Below, one piece after another: positions 5,637-54,029 of a DNA stretch of 64,000 bases. The stretch is from the NCBI GenBank assembly GCA_011390955.1, contig JAABRM010000001.1:238694-302693 (forward strand), in the 5' to 3' direction. This DNA is from Oscillatoriales cyanobacterium (GTDB lineage Bacteria; Cyanobacteriota; Cyanobacteriia; Cyanobacteriales; Laspinemataceae). Both the position numbers and the translations under genes were made by a program. The first letter of the stretch is position 1; the number at the start of each line of letters is the position of its first letter. The notes under the pieces were generated by a model that was not told where the DNA came from, did not search any database, and was given only the letters and a program-made list of their open reading frames with translations.

Positions 5637-5806
5637 TGCTTGCCGTGGAGATAGTGTCTGCCTGACAGACGATCAAAATTTTCCTGAAGTCAGTTTAACC
5701 TAGTTTTGCCTGATTTTGCCTGCAACCAGATTCTTTTTCTCGATTCCAGAAAACATCTTTCGAGAAAGGGAAGTCTTTAATATAAGAAGAATAAGAGGTG
5801 ACGGTT

Positions 5807-7522
5807 ATGAAACCTATTTTTTGGCATTCTTTAATAATTACGCTTAGTTTACTGTTTTCGGGGACTGTGGGCAAACCGCCGTTCGCCCCCGCACCCTTGT
5901 TGGCGGCCCCTGCTGGCACAGAGGATGGGGCTACGGAGAATGTTACGGAGAATGTTACGGAAACAACGGTTGATGGGGAAATTGATGGAGAAATTGATGG
6001 GGAAGTTGAGGCTAACCCAGAAAATTCCGCAGAAATGGAGGGGGAGGGGGAAACTTCTGAAACCTTAGAAACAGAGGAAACTACCGAGGAGAAACCTGTA
6101 GAGGATGTTTCGGCGGAAGCGGAAGAAGATGCGGCAGAGAAAGCGGCAGCAGAACAGCGACGGCAGGTTTTAATTGAGGCGGATAAATTATATGTGGCGG
6201 GAGATTATGCGGCGGCTAAGACATTGTATCAGCAGGTGAAACCGCCTTTTTCTGGGGATACATTACCGGATGAGTTTCGCGATCGCCCTGAACCGATTTA
6301 TGACCCGGAACTATTGGCCCCAGCGGGACAAGTGTATTGGCGTGAGGGCAATGCGGGAGTTGAGCAAAAACTGGAAACGCGGATTTTTATTCCCTTGGAG
6401 TTATTGGTAGAAAAATATCCCGAATTTATTCCCGGTCATTTACTATTGGCGCAGGCTTTCCAGGATTATGAAAAACTGCCACAAGCGGTGGAAGTGTTGA
6501 ATCGGGCTACCACCCTTTATCCCCAACAAACGGATCTGCTACGGGCGCAAATTGATGTTTTGATGAAAAGCAGACAGTGGTTAGAAGCATCGATCGCGGC
6601 CCGTCAATTTGCTTTACTCAACCCAGATCGTCCGGAGGCGGCAGAATTTGCGGTCTTGGCAGAAGAAAACTATGACAAGTTTCGGTCTTATCTGAAAAAA
6701 TTGATCGCCGGAAACGCGATCGCCAATGTGATTACTGGGGCGGTCAGTGTCGCCCTCACCGGCAATCCTTTGGGTGCCCTCTCGGCGGTGGAAACATTGG
6801 TATTACTCGCCCAGGGTGAATCCGGTCTGGGCGATCGGATCGCCAACAATGCGATCGAGAACCTGGAAATGGTGGAAGATGAAGAAATCGTTGCCTATAT
6901 TAATGAATTAGGCCAAAACCTGGCCAAAGTATCGGGCCGCGACGATTTTACCTATGAATTTCATGTGGTCTTAGATCCCAACTTAAACGCCTTTGCTCTC
7001 CCTGGGGGCAAAGTCTTTGTCAATGCTGGGGCGATTTACCACACCGAGTCAGAAGCGGAACTAGCTGGTTTACTCACCCATGAATTAGCCCACGCTATTT
7101 TATCCCACGGATTTCAAATGGTGACTCATGGCAACCTGGTGGAAAGTATGACCCGCTTTGTCCCCTTTGGCGGCACCATTGGCAATTTATTAGTCTTAGA
7201 TTATAGCCGGGAAATGGAACAGCAGGCGGATCTTTTGGGCACTCGAATGCTGGCAGCAGCGGACTATGCGGCGGATGGTTTACGCAATTTAATGGTGACA
7301 TTAAATGAGCAATATGGCGATAATAGTCCGGTGTTGAAAGCCTTATCCTCTCACCCCCCGACGAAAGAACGAATTGCTTATTTGGAAAGTTTGATTACTC
7401 GCGGTGGCTATAATCGTTATGCTTACGAGGGAGTAGAACGCCATCAGCAAATCCGCCAGCGGGTTGCCAAATTACTCGAAGAAGAAAAGGTCGATGATGA
7501 GGATATCCTAGAAATTGAATAA
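5807..7522 (+). CDS. M48-family Zn metallopeptidase (BepA/YfgC-like) with signal peptide and TPR-like region
   Basis: HELAHAILSHG HExxH motif followed by ...EQQADLLG. N-terminal hydrophobic signal. ATG at 5807 is preceded by AAGAGG. The ORF track's start at 5798 is a GTG. Confidence 0.85.
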   Translation: MKPIFWHSLIITLSLLFSGTVGKPPFAPAPLLAAPAGTEDGATENVTENVTETTVDGEIDGEIDGEVEANPENSAEMEGEGETSETLETEETTEEKPVEDVSAEAEEDAAEKAAAEQRRQVLIEADKLYVAGDYAAAKTLYQQVKPPFSGDTLPDEFRDRPEPIYDPELLAPAGQVYWREGNAGVEQKLETRIFIPLELLVEKYPEFIPGHLLLAQAFQDYEKLPQAVEVLNRATTLYPQQTDLLRAQIDVLMKSRQWLEASIAARQFALLNPDRPEAAEFAVLAEENYDKFRSYLKKLIAGNAIANVITGAVSVALTGNPLGALSAVETLVLLAQGESGLGDRIANNAIENLEMVEDEEIVAYINELGQNLAKVSGRDDFTYEFHVVLDPNLNAFALPGGKVFVNAGAIYHTESEAELAGLLTHELAHAILSHGFQMVTHGNLVESMTRFVPFGGTIGNLLVLDYSREMEQQADLLGTRMLAAADYAADGLRNLMVTLNEQYGDNSPVLKALSSHPPTKERIAYLESLITRGGYNRYAYEGVERHQQIRQRVAKLLEEEKVDDEDILEIE

Positions 7523-7692
7523 TTTTTGTTGTTTGTTGTTAGTTGATGGTTGTTAGTTGATGGTTGTTGTTTGTTGTTTGTTCATTGTTGTTTGTTCATT
7601 GTTCATCAACAACCAACCACCAACAAACAACAACCAACCAACAACCAACAAACAACAACCAACCAACAACCAACAAACAACAAGCAACAAAA
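7505..7692. repeat. Long imperfect palindrome (TTGTTG)n...(CAACAA)n between convergent genes; probable bidirectional terminator
   Basis: ttgttgtttgttg...gttcatcaacaaccaaccaccaacaaacaacaacc: a T/G-rich arm followed by its reverse complement. Confidence 0.6.
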
Positions 7693-8397
7693 TTAACTAA
7701 GATTTGCTTGAATAATGTTCTGACATTCTGCCACGGAAGCCCGTTGTTCCATTGCGGTGACCAGGGCTTCATAAGCTTTTAAGTTAGCTTCAATTAGGGT
7801 ACGCGCTTGTAAAGCAGCCCAACGCGCTTTTAATTGAGCATTCATCGGGGTGCTAATTTGACTTAAAACCCCTTGCAATTTCAGCCGGTCTTCTGCCCCT
7901 CCAGTGGCGTTATTGTATGCGATGGTTTCTGCGGCAATGCCAGCCATCCAAACGATGCAATAGCGATCGAGCATCTGAGCAGTAATTTGCCCTTTTTGCA
8001 GTTGTTCGTTGAGTTGGCAATCGTCAAATTGTACCCCGCCTTGGGCTGCCTGTCCTTGTTGGAAAGCTTCCCAAGCATTCAGGGCATAGCCGCTAATGGG
8101 AATATCCAATAAGTAGGCGACCAAAAAGTGACCGGCTTCGTGCTTGATAATGCGTTCGCGAAGCGGCGCGGATGCGCTATCGCGATGTTCTGCCGAAGTC
8201 ATTCTCGCCAACCAATCTAATATTAAAGTCCCCCCTTGACCTTGCCAGGTAAAGCTGTCTACGGTGGCAAGTCCCAACAGGGTAAAAGTAGCAACTGCCG
8301 GAATTGTGGGAGATAAATTGACCAGTGGGCCAAGTAGGACAGAAAAAGTAGTCACAAAAACAGCGATCGCTGCTAAATTTATGGAAAGTTGGTTCAT
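7693..8397 (-). CDS. Membrane-anchored protein with FtsH-type (M41-like) peptidase motif
   Basis: N-terminal TM helices, then IKHEAGHFLVAYLL, which resembles the HEAGHA zinc-binding motif of FtsH. No AAA module. Confidence 0.55.
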   Translation of the reverse strand: MNQLSINLAAIAVFVTTFSVLLGPLVNLSPTIPAVATFTLLGLATVDSFTWQGQGGTLILDWLARMTSAEHRDSASAPLRERIIKHEAGHFLVAYLLDIPISGYALNAWEAFQQGQAAQGGVQFDDCQLNEQLQKGQITAQMLDRYCIVWMAGIAAETIAYNNATGGAEDRLKLQGVLSQISTPMNAQLKARWAALQARTLIEANLKAYEALVTAMEQRASVAECQNIIQANLS

Positions 8398-8540
8398 TTT
8401 TGGATAATTTCAGAGTATTTGTTAACTTTTATAACATTTGCGCCTGTCCCCGACAAGGCTGAATGGCGATCGCTGCCAGTTTCTTTATTTCCCCTCTCTC
8501 CTCTGTGTGGAAATTGGGTGAAAACAACTCGTCGATTTCT

Positions 8541-8975
8541 CTAATTTTTGGGAGGATGCCAACCCGCCATCACCCAGAACCGTCTGACTCTAAGTGCATC
8601 CAGGTCACTACTCAATTTTAATGCGGCAACTGTTGCCCGACCAATTGCAGTTTTACCCATAATTATCACCCCGTCTTCTGCCCATTCAAAATGGTCAGAC
8701 CAGTTTTGATGACGAGGGTTGAACAGAGGAACAGACTCATTAGTTTCCGGGTCAATTCCGATTATTTTATCACTTTTATGTCCGTTACAAATTGGGCAAG
8801 CCAGCCATAGATTATCTTCTTGATCCGATCCACCTTTAGATCGGGGGATAATATGCTCAATCTGTAAACGAGCCATAACTAAATCTTGTGGACTCAAACA
8901 ATATCCACAGCGATTTTTGGCGACTTGACGGACTCGCTGTTCTAAGGCGATCGGGATATAATAATTACCAGCCAT
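8541..8975 (-). CDS. HNH endonuclease
   Basis: CGYCLSP...EHIIPRSKGGSDQEDNLWLACPICNGHK has the HNH C-x2-C...H...N...C-x2-C...H architecture. Confidence 0.8.
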   Translation of the reverse strand: MAGNYYIPIALEQRVRQVAKNRCGYCLSPQDLVMARLQIEHIIPRSKGGSDQEDNLWLACPICNGHKSDKIIGIDPETNESVPLFNPRHQNWSDHFEWAEDGVIIMGKTAIGRATVAALKLSSDLDALRVRRFWVMAGWHPPKN

Positions 8976-8990
8976 AATTAACAGTTTTAA

Positions 8991-9356
8991 TTAACAGTTT
9001 AACGGTGGTCTTAATCCCCGTTCAACGGCTATCTTAAGTGCCTCAGCTTTACGCAACATCCCCTGTCGATATTGTTGCATCAGTTCAGCGAGTTCAATCT
9101 GTTCCGAGGGGCTAATCGTTTGTTCTTGCTGGGCTGTAAGAAGTTCCGAGAGTCGTTCTTGTTGATCCGGTGCAAGTTGCAATTCACAAAGTTGTATAAT
9201 TTGCTCATCAGCCAGCAATTCTACAGGCAATTCAGCAGCCGCACGGGTCAACCAATCAAGCAATACTTCTTGCCAAGATTGCTGAGTCTGGTTAGCAAAG
9301 GCTTGTATTTGTTTCGCCAGGGATTCTGGTAGTTCTAGGGTGACTTGTGTCGTCAT
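8991..9356 (-). CDS. hypothetical acidic protein co-transcribed with the HNH endonuclease
   Basis: ORF 15 nt upstream of the HNH gene on the same strand. Gln/Glu-rich helical protein. Confidence 0.5.
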   Translation of the reverse strand: MTTQVTLELPESLAKQIQAFANQTQQSWQEVLLDWLTRAAAELPVELLADEQIIQLCELQLAPDQQERLSELLTAQQEQTISPSEQIELAELMQQYRQGMLRKAEALKIAVERGLRPPLNC

Positions 9357-9666
9357 AGTTTTTTCTGCATTGTTCCTGCCGAGGCTTAACCGCCGATTAC
9401 CCGATTATAACCTTTATATTTGAATTGTACAATAAAAATCATTTGGCATTGTCAAATAAAACAAACAAATAAAACAAATTAAGCAACCAAGAAATCAAGA
9501 ATTTGGCGATCGCCTTTGGGGGGAAGCTGAAGGTATTTGGACTCATGGGGTGAAACAGCGATCGCTGCCAGTTTCTTTGTCTCTTTGTGTCCTCTGTGTC
9601 TCTGTGGTAAAAAAATCTCTACATTCGCTATGATAAAAACAATTATCAATATACCAGCCCTAATAT

Positions 9667-12600
9667 ATGACTGAATTTTACCATGCCTTTATTTCCTACG
9701 GACGTGCGGACAGCAAAGAGTTCGCCCAGACACTATGCGATCGCCTCACAAACGCTGGGTTTAATATCTGGTTCGATCAAAATGATATTCCATTAGGAGT
9801 TAATTTCCAGAATCAAATCGATGATGGCATTGCCAAATCCGATAACTTCATATTTATCATTGCCCCTCATGCGGTGAATTCCCCCTATTGCCGCAAAGAA
9901 ATTAGCCGAGCCGTGCAGGATCGCAAACGCATCATTCCTGTACTTCATATTGAACAAATCAGCCAAGAAAATTGGCAACAACGTCATCCCCAAGGCACCG
10001 CCGAAGAATGGCAAGCATACCAAGCCAAAGGACTAAATTCTAGCTTTGCCAATATGCCCCCAGAAATTAGCCAAATTAACTGGGTATATTTCCGGGAAAA
10101 TATCGATAACTTGGAAATATCTTGCACCGGATTAATCGAACTATTGCACCATCATGGTGATTATATCAGACAGCATACAGAATTACTAGCCAAAGCCCTC
10201 AAATGGGAAGAAAAGCAAAAGCAAAATCGTTATCTTTTAACTGGGGAAGAACGACACCAAGCAGAAACTTGGTTAGAAGTGCGCTTTGACCATGAACAAC
10301 CCCCTTGTCTGCCCACAGACTTACATTGTGAGTATATTTGTGAAAGCATCAAAAATGCTAACAACCTAATGACCCAGGTATTCCTGAGTTACTCAGAACA
10401 AGACCGAGAAATTATGCAAAAATTTTCTCGAACATTGCAACGAGAAAAAATTACCTTATGGACAAATAAAACAGATATTAAAAGTGGGACAAATTTTCAG
10501 CAAGAAATCAACCGAGGAATTGCGGCGGCTGATAACTTAGTTTACCTAGTTTCTTCTAGCGCATTAAATTCTCAATATTGTCAGCAAGAAATTGAGTTAG
10601 CTTTAGCTTACCAAAAGCGGATTATTTGTTTAATTGTCGAACCGACGGATCTGGCAGAAATACCTGAGTTTTTGCGAGCATTACAATTTATTGATTTAAC
10701 CAAGGGGGAAAATCCAGAGATTTACCGTGAGCAAACCAATCAATTAATTAAACAACTGAAAGAAGAAGAAAATTATTATTATCAGCATAAGGTTTTGCTG
10801 GTCAAAGCCCTGAAATGGCAGGAACAAAACCGCAACCCTAGCATCCTGCTCCGGGGATATAATTTACAACATTTTCAGGCATGGCTGAAAATCGCCCAAA
10901 GTCGCCAGCAGCATCTACCTATTGCCTTACAAATCCAGTTTATTCAAGCCAGCGCTACTCAGCCAGATACTTTATCCCTAGAGGTTTTTATCTCTTATTC
11001 TCGCACGGATTCTGATTTTGCCCGCAAATTAAATGATGCGCTGCTGAATCAAGGAAAGTTAACCTGGTTTGACCAGGAAAGTATCGCCTATGGGACAGAT
11101 TTTCAAGAAGAAATATATCGAGGAATTGAAAATTCCGATAACTTTTTATTTGTGATTTCTCCTAGTTCGATTAATTCGCCCTATTGTGCCGCAGAGGTGG
11201 AATATGCCCAAAAGTTAAATAAGCGCTTGGTGACGGTGTTGTATCGCCCGGTGGAAACGGAGCAGTTGCACCCAGAATTAGCCAAAGTCCAGTGGATTGA
11301 TTTTCATCAAGATCGCGGACAATTTTATAGTTATTTTAGCGAGTTAATTAGAACTCTGGATACAGACAGAGACCATGTTCGTCAGCATACTAAGTGGTTG
11401 CAGCGATCGCGCGATTGGGAACAAAAAGCTCAAAGCCCTGATTTACTCTTACGGGGCAGTGAATTTGCTGTAGCGGAAAGTTGGTTAGAGGAGGCGATCG
11501 CGGCCAATAAACAACCATTGCCAACGGAATTACAACAAGCATTTATTACCGCCAGTCGTGATGCCATCCAAGCGGAAAATCAGCAGAAAAAACGCCAAAC
11601 AATGGTGCTGCGATCGCTCCTTGGTTTAGTCACCGTTGGCCTAATCATTTCCATTGCCATTGGCATAGAAGCAGTGCGACAACGGCGCCGCGCCGAAACC
11701 GTTCAGGAAGGACAAATTTATGCCCTAAGTCAATATTCCTTATCTCTCACCAACTCCGATCGCGAATTTGATGGATTAATCGAAGCCATTCGCGTCGGAC
11801 AACTGATGAAACATCGAGATAATTTACAACCAGAAACCCAACGACAATTTAGCCGCGCACTTCGGGCAGCGGTCTATCGAGTTAGAGAACAAAATCGACT
11901 CCAGGGCCATGACCATGAAGTTTGGGACGTCACCTTTAGCCCGGACGGTCAAATAATTGCCACAGCCAGTTATGACAATACGGTGAAACTCTGGAACCGT
12001 AACGGTCAAATCCTCAGTACCTTATCGGGTCATACCGACGGCATTCGCAAAGTAGATTTTAGCCCCGACGGTCAAACCGTACTCACCGCCAGCTTTGACC
12101 AAACCATCAAACTTTGGCGACTTGATGGCACCATCATCGCCAGTTTTCCTGCCCATGAAGCCCCAATTTTAAGCGTCAGTTTCAGTCCTGACGGGCAAAT
12201 CATTGCCTCTGGGAGTCAAGATCGCACGGTCAAACTCTGGAACTTAGACGGCACATTAATCACAACCCTCAGCGGACATACCAGAGAAGTCAACAGCGTC
12301 ACCTTTAGCCCGGACGGACAAACCATTGCCTCTGCCAGCGACGACAAAACCATCAAACTTTGGTCTCGTGATGGCCAACTCCAGCACACCCTCACCGGCC
12401 ATCAAAATTTAGTTTTTGATGTCACCTTTAGCCCGGACGGACAAACCATTGCCTCCGCAGGGCGAGATCAAACCGTCATCCTCTGGAGTCCCCAGGGTCA
12501 ACTCCTCAAACGTTTCGTCGGCCATGATGCTTCCATCTACAGCGTCAGGTTCAGCCCGGACGGTCAAATGTTGGCAACTTCCAGTTATGACAAAACCATC

Positions 12601-13758
12601 AAACTCTGGAGTCGCCAGGGTCAAGCACTGCAAACCCTGATTGGTCATAATGCCCAAATTCGTCGGGCTAGTTTCAGTCCTGACGGTCAAACCCTCGCCA
12701 GCGCTAGTCACGATAAAACTGTCAAACTCTGGACATTAGATACTCAAACCCGACAAACCCTGACCGGGCATCAAGATGAAATCAACAGTCTCCGCTTGAG
12801 TCCTGACGGCCAAACCATTGCCAGTGCCAGTTATGACAAAACCGTGAAGCTGTGGACTCGCGACGGTCGCATATTACAAACTCTCGCGGGACATAATGAT
12901 ATTGTCTGGGATGTGAGTTTTAGTCCTGATGGGCAGTTGGTTGCCAGCGCTTCTGAAGATGGCATGGTGCGTCTCTGGGACTTACAGGGGAAACTGTTGC
13001 AAGAGTTTCAAGACCCTACAGAGGCATCCAGTCCGGCGAATAGTGTGGATTTTAGCGCTGACGGTCAGACTTTGGTTGCCGCTTATATGAATGGAAGCTT
13101 AAAACTTTGGCAGCTTGATGGCAAATTGATTAAAACGGTTAAGGGAGATCGAGGGGCGATTTATCGAGTGCGTTTTAGTCCCGATGGTCAGATAATTGCT
13201 TCCGGGAATTACAACAATACTGTTACTCTTTGGAGTGCAACGGGGGAAAAATTGCATCTGCTCACTGGACATACAGAGTCGATTTATAGCGTGCAGTTTA
13301 TTGCCGATAGTCAGTCCCTTGTTTCTGCCAGTAAAGATGGCACGATTAAAATTTGGACTCGTGACGGGGAAGAACGGCAAACCCTGATTGGCCATAGCAC
13401 GATTACTTGGGATGCTACTTTTAGTCCTGATGGCCAAATTATTGCTTCCGGGGATGATAATCATTTAATTAAACTGTGGAATCAAAACGGGGAAGAATTA
13501 CAAACTTTATTGGGACATACTGCTAAAGTTAATGGGCTTCAATTTAGTGCCGATGGTCAGAAGATTATTTCTGCGAGTGCCGATAAATCAATTATTATTT
13601 GGACTTTAGATTTAGACAAATTAGCAACTTTGCAAACATTAGATATTAATGACCTGATGGTACGGGGTTGTGATTGGGTGGCAGATTATTTGCAGTATAA
13701 TCCATTCGTGAATGAGCGCGATCGCCAAATTTGTGAAGGCATGATTATGGAGGAGTAA
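9667..13758 (+). CDS. Three tandem TIR domains, single transmembrane helix, ~14 WD40 repeats (1363 aa)
   Basis: TIR-like blocks FISYGRADSKEF...SPYCRKEISRA, VFLSYSEQDREI...SQYCQQEIELA and VFISYSRTDSDF...SPYCAAEVEYA, each retaining the conserved Glu. TM segment MVLRSLLGLVTVGLIISIAIGIEAV. Then repeated GH...SPDG...ASxDxT(V/I)KLW WD40 units. Confidence 0.85.
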   Translation: MTEFYHAFISYGRADSKEFAQTLCDRLTNAGFNIWFDQNDIPLGVNFQNQIDDGIAKSDNFIFIIAPHAVNSPYCRKEISRAVQDRKRIIPVLHIEQISQENWQQRHPQGTAEEWQAYQAKGLNSSFANMPPEISQINWVYFRENIDNLEISCTGLIELLHHHGDYIRQHTELLAKALKWEEKQKQNRYLLTGEERHQAETWLEVRFDHEQPPCLPTDLHCEYICESIKNANNLMTQVFLSYSEQDREIMQKFSRTLQREKITLWTNKTDIKSGTNFQQEINRGIAAADNLVYLVSSSALNSQYCQQEIELALAYQKRIICLIVEPTDLAEIPEFLRALQFIDLTKGENPEIYREQTNQLIKQLKEEENYYYQHKVLLVKALKWQEQNRNPSILLRGYNLQHFQAWLKIAQSRQQHLPIALQIQFIQASATQPDTLSLEVFISYSRTDSDFARKLNDALLNQGKLTWFDQESIAYGTDFQEEIYRGIENSDNFLFVISPSSINSPYCAAEVEYAQKLNKRLVTVLYRPVETEQLHPELAKVQWIDFHQDRGQFYSYFSELIRTLDTDRDHVRQHTKWLQRSRDWEQKAQSPDLLLRGSEFAVAESWLEEAIAANKQPLPTELQQAFITASRDAIQAENQQKKRQTMVLRSLLGLVTVGLIISIAIGIEAVRQRRRAETVQEGQIYALSQYSLSLTNSDREFDGLIEAIRVGQLMKHRDNLQPETQRQFSRALRAAVYRVREQNRLQGHDHEVWDVTFSPDGQIIATASYDNTVKLWNRNGQILSTLSGHTDGIRKVDFSPDGQTVLTASFDQTIKLWRLDGTIIASFPAHEAPILSVSFSPDGQIIASGSQDRTVKLWNLDGTLITTLSGHTREVNSVTFSPDGQTIASASDDKTIKLWSRDGQLQHTLTGHQNLVFDVTFSPDGQTIASAGRDQTVILWSPQGQLLKRFVGHDASIYSVRFSPDGQMLATSSYDKTIKLWSRQGQALQTLIGHNAQIRRASFSPDGQTLASASHDKTVKLWTLDTQTRQTLTGHQDEINSLRLSPDGQTIASASYDKTVKLWTRDGRILQTLAGHNDIVWDVSFSPDGQLVASASEDGMVRLWDLQGKLLQEFQDPTEASSPANSVDFSADGQTLVAAYMNGSLKLWQLDGKLIKTVKGDRGAIYRVRFSPDGQIIASGNYNNTVTLWSATGEKLHLLTGHTESIYSVQFIADSQSLVSASKDGTIKIWTRDGEERQTLIGHSTITWDATFSPDGQIIASGDDNHLIKLWNQNGEELQTLLGHTAKVNGLQFSADGQKIISASADKSIIIWTLDLDKLATLQTLDINDLMVRGCDWVADYLQYNPFVNERDRQICEGMIMEE

Positions 13759-13817
13759 AATAATCATTTAGCATCAATCATTTAGGGTTAAAATATAATA
13801 TTTCAAGAAATCATCCA

Positions 13818-13950
13818 AGATCCCCTAACATTCTTCGGGTGGGCAAAAAATTTTACCCACCCTACCATATATAATCGTGTAATTTTGCCCACCCTACAAT
13901 ATCTTATGTTCTCAATTCCTCTAATCGGGTGGGAATTTCCCACCCGATCG
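13818..13950. repeat. MITE-like element of the GGGTGGGCAAAA family
   Basis: ctaacattcttcgggtgggcaaaaaattttacccaccctaccatatat...ttttgcccaccctacaat...gggtgggaatttcccacccgatcgcc contains nested inverted repeats. Homologous copies are at 44762 and 57328. Confidence 0.7.
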
Positions 13951-13966
13951 CCTGCCAAAAAAGCCC

Positions 13967-14710
13967 CTAAGAAAGTAACTGAATATTACTCAAATTAATC
14001 TCAACCGTGCTTTCTGCTCCTGCCTCAATATGGCGAATCACTTGACGATTAGGAATATAGTAATTCCCCACTTTTTCATAAGTATCTTCAAAATCCGCCT
14101 CAGCGATCGCCTCACCCGTATCTGGGGTCTTGAAAAAAGCGTGATAGCGAGTCCCCAAATAACCCATCGGAGTTGGTTCCGACGCTAACAAATCAACCGT
14201 CACACCCCCGGTAGGCATTAACCGATTCACCTGAGTAATTTTCCCATCCTGAACTAAATAAAATGACGGCGTTTCACCGCCTGCTTGGTCAATTTCTACC
14301 GCCCCATTCTCTTGGACTGGGCCAAAGCTAAAAGTATGCTCTTGGTGGAGCAAATCAAAGGGGACAGAACGGCGGTGAATCACTAACATTTGTAACCCAG
14401 AATACACCGACTGATAGGCATCTTCATCATCAATCCCCACCACGGTAATTTCTAAATTAGAATCAATTTCCATTTCGCCTTTATAAGTTGCCCCATCTTC
14501 GGTTACATCTACCGTTGCCGAAACCCCTGGAAAATCACTATCCCAGACATAGCGGCTATCATAAGCATCGCGAAATACTTCTAAAGCCGATGGAGTGGTT
14601 GCAGTTGCCAGGGTTTCAGCCCGGACTGGGGTAGCCACAGTCCAGCCAGCTAAGGTAAAAATTACCGTGAAACTCCAGAGGAAAATTTTCCGAGTGAGTC
14701 GGTTTTGCAT
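13967..14710 (-). CDS. hypothetical secreted protein (signal peptide)
   Basis: MQNRLTRKIFLWSFTVIFTLAGWTVATPVRA is a signal-like N-terminus. Contains HIP1 sites. No motif recognised. Confidence 0.55.
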   Translation of the reverse strand: MQNRLTRKIFLWSFTVIFTLAGWTVATPVRAETLATATTPSALEVFRDAYDSRYVWDSDFPGVSATVDVTEDGATYKGEMEIDSNLEITVVGIDDEDAYQSVYSGLQMLVIHRRSVPFDLLHQEHTFSFGPVQENGAVEIDQAGGETPSFYLVQDGKITQVNRLMPTGGVTVDLLASEPTPMGYLGTRYHAFFKTPDTGEAIAEADFEDTYEKVGNYYIPNRQVIRHIEAGAESTVEINLSNIQLLS

Positions 14711-14775
14711 GATTTCTTTAAAAGTCCTGAACAATATTATCCTTAACATAACTTAACAAATATCCCGGAAATGTC

Positions 14776-15483
14776 ATGGCAGAGTATCCCACCCAAAAGG
14801 CGATCGCCTACTCCCGAATCATTCATCTGAGTCACATCATCCACCCCCAAATCCCCCAATGGCCCGGAGATCCAGCCGTAGAACTGGAAAAAGTCGCGGA
14901 TATCGACTCAGACGGCTATTATCTGCGGCGGTTTTCCCTGGGGGAACATAGCGCCACCCATATCAACGCCCCAAATAGTTTTTTTGCCGACAGTCCGGGC
15001 ATTGATGCCTACTCTGCGGAGTCCCTAGTCGTTCCCGCCGTAGCGATCGATATTGTCAATTTAGCGGCCAAAAATCCTGATTATTTGCTCACCTTAGATG
15101 ATGTATTTTCTTGGGAAGAAACCTACGGCAGAATTCCCCCAGAAACGGTGGTGCTGCTATACACAGGTTGGCAGGAAAAATGGGCAAAACCGGATGATTT
15201 TATCAATCAACAACATTTTCCCGGATTTGGGGCAGAAACAACCAAATTTTTACTAAATGAGCGACAAATCGCAGGGGTGGGCATTGACACTCACGGGGTA
15301 GATTCTGGTCAAGATATGACTTTTGCCACCAATAAACAAGTGCTATCCCGCCGAGGAATTGTCCTGGAAAATCTCACCAATTTAGACCAGTTGCCGCCCG
15401 TTGGCACCACATTGGCGATCGGCATTTTGCGCTTACAAAATGGCTCCGGTTCTCCCGCAGCGGTGATGGCATTTGTCCCATAA
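14776..15483 (+). CDS. Cyclase-family protein (kynurenine formamidase-like, PF04199-type)
   Basis: GEHSATHINAP and GVGIDTHGVDSG blocks are typical of the putative cyclase/arylformamidase family. Confidence 0.7.
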   Translation: MAEYPTQKAIAYSRIIHLSHIIHPQIPQWPGDPAVELEKVADIDSDGYYLRRFSLGEHSATHINAPNSFFADSPGIDAYSAESLVVPAVAIDIVNLAAKNPDYLLTLDDVFSWEETYGRIPPETVVLLYTGWQEKWAKPDDFINQQHFPGFGAETTKFLLNERQIAGVGIDTHGVDSGQDMTFATNKQVLSRRGIVLENLTNLDQLPPVGTTLAIGILRLQNGSGSPAAVMAFVP

Positions 15484-15817
15484 ATAGGTTATTGTCCCAA
15501 TGAAGTACAGAGGTTTTCTGGATTCCCGCCTGCGCGGGAATGACAGTTTTTTTGTCCTTCATAACTATGACATTTGCTATAAATAGTTTCAGCTAAAATT
15601 AGCCTTAATTTATGATTTAAAATGTAAATTTTGTCCACAAATTAAAAAACTTGGCCAGAATCCCGCCAAGCTTAATATTTTATAGATTTTATAATTTCTT
15701 TATGCAGGCGATCGCCCGATCGCAAATTATTGCAAATTAAAGTGATTTACGGGATTTTTTCATCGATATATGACAGTAAAGGTATATTTAATTTTCTGTC
15801 TATTCGACTCTCAAAAT

Positions 15818-16018
15818 CTATTCGGCAACTTGTAACCAACCCCGCCGAACCGCATAGAGCAAACGGTTAATTGCAGTTTGCTCTTCTTCGCTGACCTGCT
15901 CTTTTAATAGAGTTGCTCTCAGGTGTTGCCTGTGATTTCTATCGATTCTACCTTGCTGATAGACTTGAAAAAAGACTTCAGCTAATGTGAGTTCGGAGTT
16001 GAATGATTTTGCGTACAT
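15818..16018 (-). CDS. small hypothetical protein (66 aa)
   Basis: Isolated short ORF in an otherwise gene-free interval. Weak support. Confidence 0.25.
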   Translation of the reverse strand: MYAKSFNSELTLAEVFFQVYQQGRIDRNHRQHLRATLLKEQVSEEEQTAINRLLYAVRRGWLQVAE

Positions 16019-16626
16019 TTAAGTCACCTTGAATTCCCTATTTTTAATATGAAGCTTTTTTAAAGAAAAGAGTGTGATTGTAAACTTAATATAAAGTGAT
16101 ATTTATCATAATTACCTGTGATATAGAACTACTTAGCTTAGTGACAAAAGTCCGAAGAAAATGTGATTTAAATCACTAAGTAGGGTGATTTTTTCCAGAA
16201 AAGCTCCAAGGAAATTCAGATAAATCAATCCGGGGAATCAGAAATCACTTTTCTTGATAGAGGTTTCAGCCAGAATCTCGGCGTTTCTGCGGGACAGAAT
16301 CCCGGATAAATTAGCTCGGTTTGAGGAGTTACAAAGAATTTCTGGCGATCGCATCCGGGGGGAAAGGATTTTGGTGAAGATCGGGAAGTAAATTCTGGAA
16401 AAATTAAGGACTGGTGACATTTCCGGGCATCATATCGTATCCCAGATGGCAGATTTCTCTCTTTTTTTTGCTGTGTAAAATCAAACAGTCTGGGGCGAAA
16501 AAATTTTCATCACAAGAATGCTCAGAAAAGATGTACGATCTTAACTCTGTCTTGAAAAAAGAACAAACGAACAGGTGCAGAATTTCTGTCTATCTTTAAA
16601 GCACCTTGTAGGAGAAACATCACGAT

Positions 16627-18018
16627 ATGGCAAATTTGACCCCCAACTCTAGTTTTAGTTTAACTATGCGTTTGCAGCTTCCAAATCGCCCCGGAATGCT
16701 GGCTCAAGTAACGCAGGCGATCGCTTCAGTAGGAGGCATCTTGGGTCAAATAGACTTGATTTCCCAAGACCGAACGACCGTCGTCCGGGATGTCACCGTG
16801 GATGCGGCAAGCTGCGATCACTCCCAAGAAATTACTCAAGTGGTCAAGAACCTACCCGATATTAAAGTTATCAATATATATGACCGCACCTTTAATATGC
16901 ATCGGGGTGGCAAAATTCGGATTGAGAACAAAATTCCTCTCACCACCCAAGCGGATTTAGCGATGGCTTACACCCCTGGAGTGGGGCGAATTTGTCTGGA
17001 AATTAAGGAAAATCCCGAACAAGTACATAATCTCACCATTAAAAGCAATACGGTGGCGATCGTCACCGATGGCTCTGCGGTGTTGGGATTGGGAAACCTT
17101 GGCCCAGAGGCAGCTTTGCCCGTCATGGAAGGTAAAGCGATGCTGTTTAAAGCCTTTGCCGGAATCGATGCGTTTCCCATTTGTCTGGACACCCAAGATA
17201 CGGATCAAATTGTCCAAACCATCAAAAATATCGTCCCGGTATTTGGTGGCATCAACCTAGAAGATATTAGCTCTCCCCGGTGTTTTGAGATTGAATCCAG
17301 ATTACGGCAGGAGTTAAAGATTCCGGTGTTTCACGATGACCAGCATGGCACGGCTATTGTGTCTTTGGCGGCTTTAATTAATGCCTTGAAAGTCGTACAT
17401 AAATCAATTGACGAAGTACGGATTGTGATGAATGGCGCCGGAGCGGCAGGAGTCTCTGTCGCCCGTATGCTGCGTACTTATGGAGCCAAATATATTTCTA
17501 TGTGCGATTCTAAGGGAATAATTTCTCGCGATCGCCCCAGTTTAACCGACGAAAAACGGGAATTCGCCGTAGAAAAAGGCGGCAGTCTGGCTGACGCATT
17601 AGTTGGTGCGGATGTCTTTATTGGCTTAAGTGTGCCGGGAGTTCTCACCCCAGAAATGGTCGGAACAATGGCCAAAGACCCCATTGTCTTTGCTATGGCG
17701 AACCCCATTCCGGAAATTCAGCCGGAATTAGTGGCGGAACAAGTGGCTGTCATGGCCACCGGACGGAGTGACTATCCGAATCAAATTAACAATGTCCTAG
17801 CATTTCCCGGAATTTTTCGCGGCGCCCTCGATTGTCGCGCCATCACAATTACTGATTCCATGTATTTAGTGGCTGCTGAGGCGATCGCGGCTTTAGTCTC
17901 TCCTTCTGAATTAAATCATGAGTATATTATTCCATCGGTATTCGACCAGCGAGTAGTCCCCGCCGTCTCTGCCGCTGTGCAACAAGCGGCCCGTCAAGAA
18001 GGCATCGCTCGCGCTTAA
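16627..18018 (+). CDS. me: NAD(P)-dependent malic enzyme with N-terminal ACT domain
   Basis: ACT-like N-terminus (VTQAIASVGGILGQIDL), then the malic-enzyme core ADLAMAYTPGVGRICLEI...DGSAVLGLGNLGPEAALPVMEGKAMLFK...VMNGAGAAG. Confidence 0.9.
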   Translation: MANLTPNSSFSLTMRLQLPNRPGMLAQVTQAIASVGGILGQIDLISQDRTTVVRDVTVDAASCDHSQEITQVVKNLPDIKVINIYDRTFNMHRGGKIRIENKIPLTTQADLAMAYTPGVGRICLEIKENPEQVHNLTIKSNTVAIVTDGSAVLGLGNLGPEAALPVMEGKAMLFKAFAGIDAFPICLDTQDTDQIVQTIKNIVPVFGGINLEDISSPRCFEIESRLRQELKIPVFHDDQHGTAIVSLAALINALKVVHKSIDEVRIVMNGAGAAGVSVARMLRTYGAKYISMCDSKGIISRDRPSLTDEKREFAVEKGGSLADALVGADVFIGLSVPGVLTPEMVGTMAKDPIVFAMANPIPEIQPELVAEQVAVMATGRSDYPNQINNVLAFPGIFRGALDCRAITITDSMYLVAAEAIAALVSPSELNHEYIIPSVFDQRVVPAVSAAVQQAARQEGIARA

Positions 18019-18167
18019 TCGATTAGGGATTACCTCCCGTAGGCTATGCGATCGGCTTCAGGGGCTTCAGGAAATCAGGAGGCTGCCCAGAGGCGATCGC
18101 CCACCCACCCCGTCTTGGTGACATTCTTTCCCCAAGGCGGGGTAATACTTTATTGACAAACTAAGTT

Positions 18168-18245
18168 TCGGTAGGGTGTGTTAGGCGGGGTCAAACCTGG
18201 GAATTTTTACAGAAAGTAAAAAACCCGCCGTAACGCACCATAATT
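18168..18245. repeat. Dispersed ~75-bp repeat (ggtagggtgtgttaggcggg...cccgccgtaacgcacc), left copy flanking the TA cassette
   Basis: Direct-repeat partner at 19120..19215. A further partial copy is at 63935..63990 and an inverted fragment at 18300. Confidence 0.65.
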
Positions 18246-18492
18246 TTGAGAAAAAAAGGTACTCTGCGGCGGCTCGGAATATTGTTTATTTGAACTATAA
18301 TTTTTATGCCCGCCTAACGCAACCTACCACTGCTGCCATGAGAAACCGGGTTTCTGCGTAGATATCGCGGTTCGTGACAACAATTTTTCAAAGAAACCCG
18401 GTTTCTTGGCTTTTCGGCCTGGAAAAGCTAAGTAGGATTTTCTAGTATGATAATATAATCCTACTAAAAATATTCAATAAATCCTTAAGATT

Positions 18493-18717
18493 ATGAGTAA
18501 GAAAGTCAGTATTACCTTAGACGACGAGGTTTTAGAGTTTGTCGATCGCATCGCCACGAACCGGAGTAGCTTCATCAATGATGTTTTGTGGCAGGAGAAA
18601 AAAAGAATTTTTATGAAAGAGTTAGCCGATGCTTACAAAGAGCAAGATCGTGACCCAGAGTTTCGTGAAGAAATGTCTGTTTGGGATATTACATTAGGTG
18701 ATGGACTCAATGCCTAA
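18493..18717 (+). CDS. Ribbon-helix-helix (CopG/MazE-like) antitoxin
   Basis: MSKKVSITLDDEVLEFVDRIA... RHH N-terminus. Stop overlaps the start of the MazF-like gene (ATGCCTAA). Confidence 0.7.
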   Translation: MSKKVSITLDDEVLEFVDRIATNRSSFINDVLWQEKKRIFMKELADAYKEQDRDPEFREEMSVWDITLGDGLNA

Positions 18718-19078
18718 TGGAATTTTGACTTACAAGCGAGGAGATATCTGGTGGGTTGATTTGAACCATGTGGTGGGTAGTGAAACAGGTAAAGAACGCC
18801 CTTGCTTGATGCAAGCAAAATGATATTGGCAACCAAAATGGGGCGACGACAATCGTTGCCCCATTCTTACCGGGTAAAAAGACATATCCATTTGTTGTCA
18901 ATGTAACACCAACTCCCCAAAACGGATTGGATATGGATCGACATATAAATTTGAGTCAAATCAGAACTGTAGATTTTCAAAGTATCAAAAATCAGCAGGG
19001 TGTTTTGGAGGAAAGTTATTGGCCCGCAATTGAGAAAGCTGTATGTATTGAACTAGGTTTTAGTGATGTGTTTACATA
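18710..19078 (+). pseudogene. mazF: MazF/PemK-family toxin, frameshifted
   Basis: N-terminal frame MPNGILTYKRGDIWWVDLNHVVGSETGKERPCLMQAK stops at 18821. The +1 frame continues IGNQNGATTIVAPFLPGKKTYPFVVNV...GLDMDRHINLSQIRTVDFQSI (MazF core). The shift coincides with an AAAA run at ~18817..18820. Confidence 0.7.
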
Positions 19079-19119
19079 GATTTTGTAACCAACAAGGTTT
19101 ATGCGTAGATTATCTAGTT

Positions 19120-19215
19120 TTTCGGTAGGGTGCGTTAGGCGGGGGAAAACTTGGGAATTTTTACAGAGATTAAAAAGCCCGCCGTAACGCACCTTTCTTT
19201 CTAAAAATTATGGTG
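19120..19215. repeat. Dispersed ~75-bp repeat, right copy flanking the TA cassette
   Basis: cggtagggtgcgttaggcgggggaaaacttgggaatttttacagagattaaaaagcccgccgtaacgcacc, in the same orientation as 18168..18245. Confidence 0.65.
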
Positions 19216-19227
19216 CGTTATGCCTTG

Positions 19228-53624: not shown

Positions 53625-53689
53625 GGCTACAGGTTAAAGCGGAATAGGGCGTTCTTGCTCCTTACTATACAGCGATTTTCTATTAAATA

Positions 53690-53990: not shown

Positions 53991-54029
53991 GTTTGATTTT
54001 TGTTGGGTTTCCTGCGTCAACCCAACCTA

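What the first reader, a model, noticed from the sequence alone, without database searches (positions are those of the whole stretch)
9667..13758. Three tandem TIR domains, a single transmembrane helix and a 14-blade WD40 propeller in one 1363-aa protein
Three consecutive TIR-like modules each keep the Cys-x-x-Glu position (SPYCRKEIS, SQYCQQEIEL, SPYCAAEVEY) that carries the catalytic Glu in NAD+-cleaving TIRs. A predicted TM helix (LLGLVTVGLIISIAIGIEAV) then separates them from a long WD40 array. This would place the TIRs and the WD40 sensor on opposite sides of a membrane. That topology differs from described TIR-STAND or Thoeris/CBASS TIR effectors and lacks any NTPase module. It could be a trans-membrane signal-to-NADase (cell-death or defence) device. 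Alternatively the TIRs could be purely scaffolding.
Basis: partly seen in the sequence, partly recalled or inferred. Interest (0 to 1): 0.6.

Follow-up and report, generated by a model that had tools for sequence, protein, structure and literature searches.

The report
Triple-TIR membrane receptor with WD40 sensor
This cyanobacterial gene encodes a single-pass membrane protein with three TIR domains, predicted to cleave NAD+, on the cytoplasmic side and two WD40 propellers predicted on the outer side; this Toll-like-receptor-like layout belongs to a large, dispensable and uncharacterised family that looks like an immune or cell-death sensor.

Summary
Window 9667-13758 (+) is an intact 1363-aa ORF. 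It holds three TIR units, one hydrophobic helix (res 646-670), 14 WD40 repeats and a short tail with a conserved Cys pair.

All three TIRs keep the Glu at the catalytic position. Family-wide it is kept in 222, 201 and 210 of 225 proteins for TIR1, TIR2 and TIR3.

The helix behaves as a real membrane span with the N-terminus inside. Only its hydrophobicity and length (21.7±2.1 residues) are conserved. Flanking K+R averages 5.2 on the N side and 2.8 on the C side (p=8e-22). In sister proteins the WD40 part is replaced by CHASE2, GIFT, FGE-sulfatase or DM9 modules.

The "14-blade propeller" is most likely two 7-bladed propellers (55% identical to 2YMU).

The gene is not unique. At least 315 clusters (50% identity) share the module, nearly all named sources being cyanobacteria. 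It is not housekeeping either. It stands alone, has no conserved neighbours, and is absent from the same locus in two related contigs.

Best reading: an NTPase-free receptor in which binding to an outer-side sensor clusters cytoplasmic TIRs and switches on NAD+ cleavage for defence or cell death. Activity, topology and trigger are all untested. I rate it a new variant of a known kind, with moderate to high interest.

The parts
9667..13758 (+). Whole gene: 1363-aa TIRx3-TM-WD40x14 protein including the stop codon. It is monocistronic, diverging from the gene on its left and converging with the gene on its right.
   Evidence: neighbours are on the opposite strand
9673..10152 (+). TIR unit 1 (res 3-162). 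Glu78 (9898-9900) is at the catalytic position. A conserved 40-aa insert specific to TIR1 spans res 96-135 (9952-10071).
   Evidence: Pfam TIR_2; E78 aligns to the AbTIR/BtTir Glu; E78 is invariant in A1 and kept in 222/225 proteins family-wide; AF2 pLDDT about 90
10153..10362 (+). Post-TIR helical domain 1 (res 163-232), motif RQHTxLLxKALxWE...LLxG...AExWL, ending in the conserved C214/H220/C221 cluster
   Evidence: internal alignment of the three units; invariant columns; helices 164-182, 193-204 and 218-231; no Pfam family
10363..10764 (+). TIR unit 2 (res 233-366), Glu308 (10588-10590). This is the least conserved of the three TIRs.
   Evidence: Pfam TIR_2; aligns to the Cat1 TIR with E308 on the Glu of WCWDE; Glu kept in 201/225, mostly replaced by Gln when lost
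10765..10971 (+). Post-TIR helical domain 2 (res 367-435)
10972..11364 (+). TIR unit 3 (res 436-566), Glu510 (11194-11196)
   Evidence: Pfam TIR_2 best stretch 440-549; aligns to the TLR15 TIR WCQYE; Glu kept in 210/225
11365..11586 (+). Post-TIR helical domain 3 (res 567-640), running straight into the transmembrane helix
   Evidence: profile A3 gives 3, 5 or 7 matched stretches per protein in relatives
11602..11676 (+). Predicted transmembrane helix (res 646-670; uncharged core 651-667), N-terminus inside and C-terminus outside
   Evidence: hydropathy; conserved position, non-conserved sequence and positive-inside bias; part of one 76-residue helix 621-696 in the AF2 model, with pLDDT dipping to 50-64
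11677..11892 (+). Juxtamembrane helical linker (res 671-742) leading into the first WD40 blade
11893..12753 (+). WD40 repeats 1-7 (res 743-1029), predicted first 7-bladed propeller, Cys-free
   Evidence: Pfam WD40; 41-aa register; AF2 model; 2YMU match
12754..13620 (+). WD40 repeats 8-14 (res 1030-1318), predicted second 7-bladed propeller, Cys-free. Repeat 10 is atypical and modelled with low confidence.
13621..13755 (+). C-terminal helical tail with the conserved Cys pair C1335 and C1356 (CDWVxDYLxxN...D..xC), the only cysteines after the membrane helix
   Evidence: conserved tail in A2; two Cys in all 26 complete tails; exactly 2 Cys after the TM in 24/26 homologues
8993..13926 (.). Segment carrying the gene (plus the 121-aa ORF) that is missing from the same locus in a contig about 90% identical
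   Evidence: blastn of the window against L014; no tblastn hit in L014 or L016; junction sequences

Best explanation
The gene encodes a stand-alone, dispensable, single-pass (type II: N-terminus in, C-terminus out) inner-membrane receptor.

The cytoplasmic part is a rigid array of three TIR-plus-helical-domain units. Each TIR keeps the catalytic-type Glu.

The extracytoplasmic part is a helical stalk, two 7-bladed WD40 propellers of the WRAP type, and a tail probably stapled by one disulfide.

Proposed mechanism (inferred):
1. The propellers bind a periplasmic or envelope ligand, such as a phage component, a foreign-cell or kin molecule, or an envelope-damage product.
2. Binding changes the oligomeric state or packing of the receptor through the TM helix and the continuous 621-696 helix.
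3. TIR units from one or several chains are brought into the head-to-tail contacts that known TIR enzymes need for activity.
4. The TIRs then cleave NAD+. This either depletes it or makes an ADP-ribose-derived signal, giving growth arrest or death of the affected cell.

The TIRxN-TM module is the constant effector and the C-terminal domain is an exchangeable sensor. The architecture, domain identities, Glu conservation, family-level topology signals and accessory status are shown here. Enzyme activity, the actual location of the WD40 part, the ligand and the biological role are not shown.
For: Anatomy.

Catalytic-type Glu: it aligns with the Glu of AbTIR, BtTir and Cat1. E78 is invariant and E308 and E510 are at least 90% conserved in 56 sequences. 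Family-wide counts are 222/225, 201/225 and 210/225.

TIR similarity: the TIRs score best against defence-type TIR models (Thoeris ThcB4, ThsB, SAVED-TIR, pAgo-TIR), though below the curated cut-offs. Foldseek hits TIRs only, including AbTir, SARM1 and SPARTA.

Membrane span:
- It is the only hydrophobic segment in the protein.
- It is present at the same place in nearly all homologues, with a non-conserved sequence.
- In 138 representatives at 50% identity the uncharged length is 21.7±2.1. K+R averages 5.2 on the N side against 2.8 on the C side, N>C in 123 and N<C in 7, Wilcoxon p=8e-22.

Sensor swapping after the same TM: CHASE2 followed by C-terminal TM helices, DUF4350/GIFT, WG repeats plus FGE-sulfatase, DM9, and divergent WD40.

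Cysteine pattern: exactly two Cys after the TM, both in the conserved tail pair, in 24/26 homologues. The TIR half has 5-10 Cys, and a TM-less WD40 protein in the same window has 7.

Export is feasible: related WD40 propellers occur with signal peptides or lipoboxes.

Accessory, single-gene status:
- No conserved neighbours in 11 loci.
- Its 90% cluster has 2 members, against 20 for the neighbouring malic enzyme.
- The gene is absent at the syntenic site in L014 (about 90% nt identity) and L016.
- Several homologues are named from one MAG, Symploca sp. SIO2E9.
- TIR copy number varies from 1 to 7.

Prior literature links WRAP-type propellers to bacterial innate immunity (PMC9218822).
Against: - No experiment exists on any member that I could find.
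- A Glu at this position also occurs in TLR TIR domains (TLR15 WCQYE). To my knowledge TLR TIRs are not known to cleave NAD+, so the Glu is necessary but not sufficient.
- The top Foldseek hits are receptor-type TIRs (Hydra TRR-2, TLR6).
- The query's own TM flanks are nearly balanced (4 K/R on each side, with RQRRR right after the helix), so its individual topology is ambiguous.
- Three of the 120 listed close homologues, and a few representatives, lack the TM but keep the WD40 array. The membrane is therefore not indispensable for every member.
- The closest solved propeller (2YMU) belongs to a STAND ATPase protein and folds when expressed in E. coli (PMC6805158, PMC9218822). The Cys-free blades could partly reflect descent from a Cys-free blade rather than location.
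- No defence island signature is specific to this gene, and PADLOC has no model for the whole architecture.
Confidence: 0.5

Rival explanations
1. Signal-generating TIR receptor. The TIRs are active but do not kill by depleting NAD+. They make a cyclic or modified ADP-ribose messenger, as Thoeris ThsB does, which activates an effector encoded elsewhere in the genome.
For: The best NCBIfam and PADLOC matches for the TIRs are Thoeris ThsB/ThcB4-type models. In L007 and L008 the TIRx3-CHASE2 paralogue sits next to a TPR-CHAT caspase-like protease, and TIR-to-caspase signalling is described for type IV Thoeris (review PMC13434031). The window also holds an AAA_35-GUN4-Macro protein 16 kb away, and AAA_35 is fused to a TIRx3 module in P0087.
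Against: No conserved partner gene lies next to the WD40-type members in 11 loci. All Thoeris matches are far below the curated cut-offs (125 bits against 220). No ThsA-like SIR2/SLOG gene was seen in the flanks annotated.
Confidence: 0.2
2. Non-enzymatic scaffold receptor. The TIRs act as homotypic interaction platforms, as in animal TLRs and their adaptors. They would serve signalling, adhesion or development in cyanobacteria rather than NAD+ chemistry or defence.
For: The top structural matches are receptor TIRs (TRR-2, TLR6, TLR1). TIR3 aligns best to TLR15/TLR2. TIR2 and TIR3 lose the Glu in 7-11% of members. The three units form one confidently predicted rigid array (pTM 0.70).
Against: The Glu is retained in 89-99% of units across clusters below 50% identity, which is hard to explain without catalysis. 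No other stand-alone TIR adaptor gene is linked. Presence/absence polymorphism, paralogy and sensor swapping fit conflict systems better than core signalling.
Confidence: 0.15
3. Wholly cytoplasmic protein. The hydrophobic helix is a peripheral anchor or an oligomerisation helix, and the WD40 array senses a cytoplasmic ligand as in STAND-WD40 proteins.
For: TM-less relatives exist with the helix cleanly missing. The query has RQRRR directly after the helix. The nearest solved propeller comes from a STAND ATPase protein and folds in the E. coli cytoplasm (PMC6805158, PMC9218822). The uncharged core in the query is only 17 residues.
Against: The family shows a positive-inside bias (p=8e-22) and a uniform hydrophobic length of about 22 residues with no sequence conservation. 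The same helix precedes CHASE2 and other typically extracytoplasmic modules. Exactly one conserved Cys pair follows the helix. Two of the three TM-less variants have gained extra Cys in their blades.
Confidence: 0.12

Closest known systems
Animal Toll-like receptors / IL-1 receptors
   Same: The logic is the same: a repeat-built ligand-binding domain outside, one transmembrane helix, and TIR on the cytoplasmic side. TIR3 and TIR1 align to TLR TIR domains and Foldseek ranks TLR-type TIRs at the top.
   Different: The orientation is opposite (N-in/C-out, no signal peptide). The sensor is a WD40 propeller rather than an LRR solenoid. There are three to seven TIRs per chain, each with an extra helical domain. 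The TIRs keep a Glu pattern typical of NAD+-cleaving TIRs. No MyD88-like adaptor is linked. The resemblance is probably convergent assembly from shared domains, not orthology.
Bacterial and other NAD+-cleaving TIR effectors (AbTir/BtTir, SARM1, Cat1, TIR-SAVED, SPARTA, ThsB)
   Same: Same TIR fold, with the Glu at the catalytic position. The expected activation is by induced TIR-TIR assembly, from established knowledge of these enzymes.
   Different: Those proteins are soluble and are triggered by cytoplasmic signals (cyclic nucleotides, guide-target duplexes, NMN/NAD ratio, phage proteins). This protein is membrane-anchored, has tandem TIRs in one chain, and has a predicted outer-side sensor. 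Activity was not tested.
TIR-STAND-WD40/TPR proteins and the WRAP propeller protein Npun_R6612 (2YMU) of cyanobacteria
   Same: The WD40 subfamily is the same (55% identity to 2YMU over 575 columns). The taxa and the proposed innate-immunity context are shared (PMC9218822).
   Different: There is no STAND or any other NTPase. A membrane helix separates effector and sensor, so the intramolecular NTPase switch of STAND proteins cannot operate. The blades here are diverged (45% aa, 54% nt identity), not recently amplified.
Receptor kinases with an extracellular beta-propeller (e.g. M. tuberculosis PknD) and CHASE2 receptors
   Same: The plan is the same: cytoplasmic catalytic module, one TM, then an extracytoplasmic propeller or CHASE2 sensor. 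True TIRx3-CHASE2 sisters exist.
   Different: The output is TIR instead of a kinase or cyclase. PknD has an NHL propeller, not WD40 (this comparison is from my own knowledge and was not tested here).
Membrane-tethered TIR NADase TirC of Dictyostelium (PMC13142454)
   Same: A TIR held at a membrane by a single hydrophobic helix. Tethering is proposed there to restrain a toxic NADase.
   Different: TirC has an N-terminal anchor only, one TIR and no sensor domain. It is eukaryotic and derived from TIR-STING.

Membership tests
TIR domain superfamily (Pfam TIR_2, PF13676) | Significant match to the TIR_2 profile above the gathering score | tested here: met
   276 bits against a cut-off of 28, three stretches; Foldseek probability 1.00 to many solved TIR domains
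NAD+-cleaving (enzymatic) TIRs | Glu at the catalytic position of the alpha-C region (SARM1 E642 / AbTir E208 equivalent) | tested here: met
   E78, E308 and E510 align to the Glu of AbTIR, BtTir, Cat1 and TLR15 motifs; conserved in 222/225, 201/225 and 210/225 proteins. The residue numbers of the reference enzymes are from my own knowledge.
NAD+-cleaving (enzymatic) TIRs | Measured NAD+ hydrolase or cyclase activity that depends on the Glu and on oligomerisation | not testable with these tools
   Needs a biochemical assay
Thoeris (ThsB TIR sensor plus ThsA-type effector) | Score above the curated cut-off for a ThsB/ThcB model, and an adjacent effector gene (SIR2/SLOG, Macro-TM, caspase-like) | tested here: not met
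   ThcB4 scores 125 bits against a cut-off of 220. No conserved neighbour was found in 11 loci, and none in the window flanks.
TIR-STAND / NLR-like (Avs, TIR-NB-ARC-WD40) | Central STAND NTPase (NACHT/NB-ARC/AAA) between effector and repeats | tested here: not met
   No NTPase family was found in Pfam, NCBIfam or PADLOC scans of the protein. The inter-TIR regions match no Pfam family.
WD40 beta-propeller, WRAP branch | Tandem WD40 blades of about 41 aa folding into 7-bladed propellers, with close similarity to Npun_R6612 WRAP | tested here: met
   14 Pfam WD40 stretches; 41-aa register; about 56 strands in the AF2 model; 2YMU at E 1.8e-60 and 55% identity
WD40 beta-propeller, WRAP branch | Recent amplification (near-identical blades) | tested here: not met
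   Blades are 45% identical at protein level and 54% at DNA level, with a maximum of 67%
Single-pass type II membrane receptor | One hydrophobic helix of membrane-spanning length, with positive-inside bias placing the N-terminus in the cytoplasm | tested here: met
   Met at family level: length 21.7±2.1, K+R 5.2 against 2.8, p=8e-22. For the query alone the charge bias is inconclusive (4 against 4 K/R).
Single-pass type II membrane receptor | Experimentally shown extracytoplasmic location of the C-terminal domain | not testable with these tools
   Only indirect support: CHASE2, GIFT, FGE-sulfatase and DM9 swaps, the Cys-pair pattern, and exported WD40 relatives
Anti-phage defence system | Protection against phage on expression, or consistent placement in defence islands | tested here: inconclusive
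   The gene is accessory and variable, and the window holds other STAND, NACHT and PtuB-like HNH genes. There is no conserved island context and no functional data.

The most novel reading that the evidence does not exclude
Cyanobacteria may carry a large, modular family of receptors that need no NTPase and have a Toll-like-receptor-like layout. An exchangeable extracytoplasmic sensor (WD40 propellers, CHASE2, FGE-sulfatase/WG, DM9, GIFT) would detect phage or foreign-cell molecules in the periplasm. It would transmit this through one TM helix to a pre-organised array of three to seven TIR NADases. That would be a bacterial immune receptor sensing outside the cytoplasm and executing with TIR chemistry, a direct functional analogue of TLRs built in the opposite orientation.
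Probability: 0.3. Interest if true: 0.85.

Novelty: new variant of a known kind. Interest (0 to 1): 0.6.

Why it matters
All characterised bacterial TIR systems that I know of sense infection inside the cytoplasm. They are gated by a nucleotide signal, a nucleic-acid guide or an NTPase switch.

A TIR effector wired through a membrane helix to an outer-side, exchangeable sensor would differ in two ways. It would extend TIR immunity to surveillance of the cell envelope. It would also be the closest bacterial counterpart of the TLR layout.

The tandem TIR-plus-helical-domain array (3 to 7 units in one chain) is a natural test case for how TIR-TIR geometry controls NADase activation.

The family is large (at least 315 clusters at 50% identity at E<=1e-30). 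It occurs in genera with genetically tractable members (Anabaena/Nostoc relatives), so the idea can be tested directly.

If the TIRs prove inactive, or the WD40 part proves cytoplasmic, the finding reduces to one more multidomain TIR-WD40 protein of the kind long catalogued in multicellular bacteria.

Tried and rejected
- **Post-TIR3 + TM + linker as a single query**. It returned only 3 proteins because of the word index. A profile search replaced it.
- **Last seven blades plus tail as query**. The aim was to compare TM-containing and TM-less WD40 architectures. It returned only short, mostly fragmentary WD40 proteins. It showed that exported relatives exist but gave no clean cytoplasmic control for the Cys statistic.
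- **Finding the source genome or syntenic genomes.** The genome-contig scan gave 11 loci, none identical. The exact-product look-up found no record for the gene and only two 3.7-kb contigs for the malic enzyme. The organism therefore remains unnamed, beyond being a cyanobacterium with HIP1 repeats and 43.6% GC.
- **AFDB Foldseek library.** It was unavailable. Model coordinates are not exposed, so TIR-TIR interfaces and the C1335-C1356 distance could not be measured.
- **Conserved operon partner.** Rejected for the WD40 type.
- **HNH + 121-aa pair upstream as part of the system.** Rejected. It is not found next to homologues and is bracketed by its own direct repeat.
- **One 14-bladed propeller.** Rejected in favour of 2x7 (PMC6805158).
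- **Recent blade amplification or hypervariability as in WRAP.** Not supported. Blades are 45% identical, and the variable positions are the usual post-GH and pre-Asp positions.
- **Literature searches** for this architecture. None found a description. Dunin-Horkawicz et al. 2014 (J Mol Biol), the most likely place for one, is not held.

Full report
**1. Observation**

Window 9667-13758 (+) is a single uninterrupted ORF of 1363 aa starting at ATG.
- Pfam gives three TIR_2 stretches (E 5e-83) and fourteen WD40 stretches (E 1e-161).
- Residues 646-670 hold the only strongly hydrophobic segment in the protein. Its Kyte-Doolittle 19-residue mean is 2.31. A position-independent Hessa-type sum gives -2.1 kcal/mol for the uncharged 17-residue core, against at least +9.9 elsewhere (scale values are from my memory of Hessa et al. 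2005).
- No NTPase domain is detected by Pfam, NCBIfam or PADLOC.

First, the repeated N-terminal unit is a TIR plus a conserved helical domain of about 70 aa. Its motif is RQHTxLLxKALxWE...LLRG..L..AExWL...P.P..LQ..FI..S, and it matches no Pfam family. TIR1 additionally carries a conserved 40-aa insert (res 96-135).

Second, the 14 blades most likely form two 7-bladed propellers. The AF2 model of res 621-1363 (pLDDT 81.6, pTM 0.52, about 56 strands) matches 2YMU best (E 1.8e-60, 55% identity over 575 columns). 2YMU is the 14-blade WRAP domain of Nostoc punctiforme Npun_R6612, which folds as two 7-bladed propellers (PMC6805158).

**2. The TIR half**

An AF2 model of res 1-745, built on 56 homologues, is confident (pLDDT 86.3, pTM 0.70). 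It shows three alpha/beta TIR folds, each followed by three helices. A single 76-residue helix (621-696) then runs through the hydrophobic segment, where pLDDT falls to 50-64. Foldseek against the PDB returns only TIR domains: Hydra TRR-2, TLR6, AbTir, BtTir, SARM1, SPARTA, MyD88 and plant TIRs.

Sequence alignments place each Glu on a known motif:
- E78 on the Glu of AbTIR WTNYE and BtTir WTEYE
- E308 on the Glu of Cat1 WCWDE
- E510 on the Glu of TLR15 WCQYE

From established knowledge, this is the catalytic Glu of SARM1, AbTir and other NAD+-cleaving TIRs.

In a 56-sequence alignment E78 is invariant and E308 and E510 are at least 90% conserved. Over 225 three-TIR proteins, drawn from the close homologues and from representatives at 50% identity, the Glu is present in 222 (TIR1), 201 (TIR2, mostly replaced by Gln when lost) and 210 (TIR3).

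The Glu is necessary but not sufficient for activity, because TLR TIRs also carry it. Enzymatic activity is therefore likely but not shown.

**3. The hydrophobic helix**

Nearly all homologues have one hydrophobic segment at the same place, about 75-110 residues after TIR3. Its sequence is not conserved; only its hydrophobic character is.
- In 66 non-redundant WD40-type homologues, the 15 residues before the helix hold 5.4 K+R and 1.9 D+E. The 15 residues after it hold 2.95 and 2.06.
- In 138 representative clusters at 50% identity, the uncharged stretch is 21.7±2.1 residues long. K+R is 5.2 before and 2.8 after, with N>C in 123 and N<C in 7 (Wilcoxon p=8e-22).

This is the signature of a membrane span with the N-terminus in the cytoplasm. 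It is not the signature of a buried or coiled-coil helix.

The query alone is ambiguous, with four K/R on each side and RQRRR directly after the helix.

**4. What follows the helix in relatives**

The same TIRxN-helix module is joined to several different C-terminal parts:
- WD40 arrays, in the majority
- CHASE2 followed by C-terminal TM helices (P0021, P0054, P0073 and others; TIRx5-CHASE2 in P0001)
- DUF4350/GIFT (P0117)
- WG repeats plus an FGE-sulfatase domain (P0220)
- DM9 repeats (P0258)
- divergent WD40 (P0256, P0264)
- multi-TM blocks (P0259, P0288)

CHASE2 is by convention an extracytoplasmic sensor, and the other domains are typical ligand-binding modules. The pattern is a constant effector with a variable sensor.

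Among the 150 best representatives I counted these architectures:

| Architecture | Count |
|---|---|
| TIRx3-TM-WD40 | 65 |
| TIRx1, 2, 4, 5 or 7-TM-WD40 | about 38 |
| TIRxN-TM-other (no WD40 or CHASE2 matched) | 31 |
| CHASE2 types | 5 |
| Without a detectable TM | 9 |

The TIRx4 classes include TIRx3 proteins whose TIR1 was split into two hits by its insert, so the TIRx3 share is an undercount.

L001 and L002 are TIRx5-TM-WD40.

**5. Cysteine pattern**

The query has nine Cys before the helix. After it there are only two, C1335 and C1356, both in a conserved C-terminal tail (CDWVxDYLxxN...D..xC).

In 24 of 26 non-redundant complete homologues, the region after the helix (189-693 aa) has exactly these two Cys. 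Cys frequency is 0.43% after the helix against 1.04% before it. A TM-less WD40-TPR protein in the same window has seven Cys.

Three close homologues (P0009, P0017, P0019) lack the helix cleanly, and two of them have gained extra Cys in their blades.

This fits an exported domain with one disulfide. It is indirect, though, because the blades may descend from a Cys-free ancestor. I could not assemble a proper cytoplasmic control set.

WD40 relatives with signal peptides or lipoboxes do exist, so export of such propellers is feasible.

**6. Distribution and genomic status**

The N-terminal 745 aa finds 942 proteins at E<=1e-5. All of those listed with a source name are cyanobacterial, spanning Dolichospermum/Anabaena, Coleofasciculus, Symploca, Microcoleus, Scytonema, Rivularia, Okeania, Planktothricoides, Waterburya and Crocosphaera. 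None is more than about 62% identical.

A profile of the post-TIR3 domain plus helix plus linker finds 9200 representatives at E<=1e-3 among clusters at 50% identity. Of these, 3861 are at E<=1e-10 and 315 at E<=1e-30.

The gene is monocistronic here, with neighbours on the opposite strand on both sides. Eleven loci from other genomes share no neighbour with it.

Its 90% cluster has two members, against twenty for the malic enzyme 3 kb away.

A metagenome contig (L014) is about 90% identical to the flanks (window 5056-8470 and 13926-18142). In place of window 8993-13926 it has about 43 bp, it keeps only a remnant of the upstream HNH gene, and it has no tblastn hit to the protein. A more distant syntenic contig (L016) also lacks the gene.

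Several homologues are named from a single MAG, Symploca sp. SIO2E9 (P0030, P0061, P0108, P0116).

The family is thus widespread but accessory, variable in copy number and domain content, and not housekeeping.

**7. Mechanism proposed**

- *Shown:* the architecture, the TIR identity with conserved catalytic-type Glu, the family-level N-in topology signal, the exchangeable C-terminal modules, and the accessory stand-alone status.
- *Inferred:* the WD40 propellers lie outside the cytoplasmic membrane and bind a ligand. Binding alters receptor packing through the TM and the long continuous helix. This brings TIR units into the head-to-tail contacts that known TIR enzymes need. NAD+ is then cleaved, leading to growth arrest or death, or to a diffusible signal.

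The small-residue patterns in the TM helices are compatible with helix-helix packing, but I did not test this.

Confidence by step:

| Claim | Confidence |
|---|---|
| Single-pass membrane protein with cytoplasmic TIRs | about 0.8 |
| TIRs are enzymatically active | about 0.6 |
| Role in conflict or cell death | about 0.5 |
| Whole chain | about 0.5 |

**8. Rivals**

- (a) A Thoeris-like signal generator acting on an unlinked effector. Support comes from the ThsB/ThcB4-type best matches and from the TPR-CHAT neighbour of the CHASE2 paralogue. All scores are below cut-off, however, and no partner is conserved.
- (b) A non-enzymatic scaffold receptor. Support comes from the TLR-type top structural hits. 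The 89-99% Glu retention argues against it.
- (c) A wholly cytoplasmic protein with a peripheral or oligomerising helix. Support comes from the TM-less variants and from the STAND-linked origin of the nearest solved propeller (PMC9218822). Sections 3-5 argue against it.

**9. Comparison with what is known**

*What it works like.* It resembles a Toll-like receptor in reverse orientation (sensor repeats, one TM, TIR). It also resembles receptor kinases with extracellular propellers or CHASE2 receptors, with the output replaced by TIR.

*Membership.* It is a member of the TIR superfamily and of the WD40 (WRAP-branch) propellers. It is not a member of Thoeris: its scores are below cut-off and no effector gene is linked. 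It is not a TIR-STAND/NLR-like protein, because it has no NTPase.

*Literature.* The open literature I could search describes TIR-NBD-WD40/TPR proteins in bacteria (PMC9153377) and WRAP propellers linked to STAND and TIR proteins (PMC9218822). It also covers many conflict systems of multicellular bacteria (PMC7159879, PMC8195603) and membrane-associated phage sensors such as Kiwa, Zorya and SNIPE (PMC13434031). I found no description of an NTPase-free multi-TIR-TM-sensor family. The paper most likely to mention it, Dunin-Horkawicz et al. 2014, is not held.

**10. Verdict**

This is a real and well-defined feature. It is not unique to this genome, since the family is already in databases under a generic name. 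As an architecture, however, it is undescribed and mechanistically suggestive.

I rate it a new variant of a known kind, namely TIR-based conflict or cell-death proteins with repeat sensors. Interest is 0.6. It would be higher if outer-side sensing coupled to TIR NADase activity were demonstrated.

Noticed in passing
window 34739-37351 (+): An 870-aa homologue of the eukaryotic Major Vault Protein, with Vault repeats (E 3e-67), the MVP shoulder domain (E 1e-51) and Vault_2, Vault_3 and Vault_4. To my knowledge vault proteins are rare in bacteria.
   Followed up: no
window 29843-32326 (+): An AAA_35-GUN4-Macro fusion protein of 827 aa, with a PADLOC PD-T4-6 hit over the GUN4 part. AAA_35 is also fused N-terminally to a TIRx3 module in P0087, which hints at a link between AAA_35 proteins, ADP-ribose-binding Macro domains and this TIR family.
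   Followed up: partly
window 51012-55823 (-): A STAND ATPase (597 aa, weak Avs1b/STAND_TPR hits) lies immediately upstream of a TM-less WD40-TPR protein (870 aa, AITPDG-type blades, 7 Cys). This is a split NLR-like pair in the same window.
   Followed up: partly
window 18142-27411: This 9.3-kb block is absent from the roughly 90%-identical contig L014. It holds an eCIS_core/DUF4157 protein (20305-22218), an 864-aa protein with no family match (22421-25015) and a NACHT/NB-ARC protein (25636-27129). It is a second variable segment next to the first.
   Followed up: partly
window 8466-8486 and 9558-9578 (+): An exact 21-bp direct repeat containing the HIP1 palindrome (GCGATCGCTGCCAGTTTCTTT), extended by similar CT-rich sequence. 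It brackets a PtuB-like HNH endonuclease gene (8541-8975, -) and a 121-aa helical ORF (8991-9356, -). Chance expectation is 0.01 matches. L014 keeps one copy and only a remnant of the HNH 5' end.
   Followed up: partly
window 13836-13947: Three GGGTGGG...CCCACCC hairpin-type repeats lie just after the stop codon. The last one coincides with the point where similarity to L014 resumes. They could be a terminator or a recombination site.
   Followed up: no
L007 1136-9946 and L008 199-8709: The TIRx3-CHASE2 paralogue sits in a cluster shared by an Anabaena azotica contig (L007) and a Leptolyngbyaceae MAG contig (L008). The order is ShlB/FhaC-type POTRA outer-membrane protein, TPR-CHAT caspase-like protease, TIRx3-CHASE2, DUF928.
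   Followed up: partly
P0009, P0017, P0019, P0065 (homologues): Natural deletion variants. Three TIRx3-WD40 proteins lack the TM helix exactly. One 676-aa protein joins the pre-TM region directly to the Cys-pair tail, with no TM and no WD40.
   Followed up: yes
window 9952-10071 and 10306-10341 (protein res 96-135 and 214-225): A TIR1-specific conserved insert rich in Trp and His, and a conserved C214/H220/C221 cluster (plus C225 in the query) at the junction of units 1 and 2. This could be a regulatory or metal/redox site.
   Followed up: no
window 28540-29712 (+): A photosystem II reaction-centre family gene (Photo_RC, E 2e-89) lies between the NACHT and AAA_35-GUN4-Macro genes. The listed ORF starts at TTG, giving 390 aa, so the true start is probably further downstream.
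   Followed up: no
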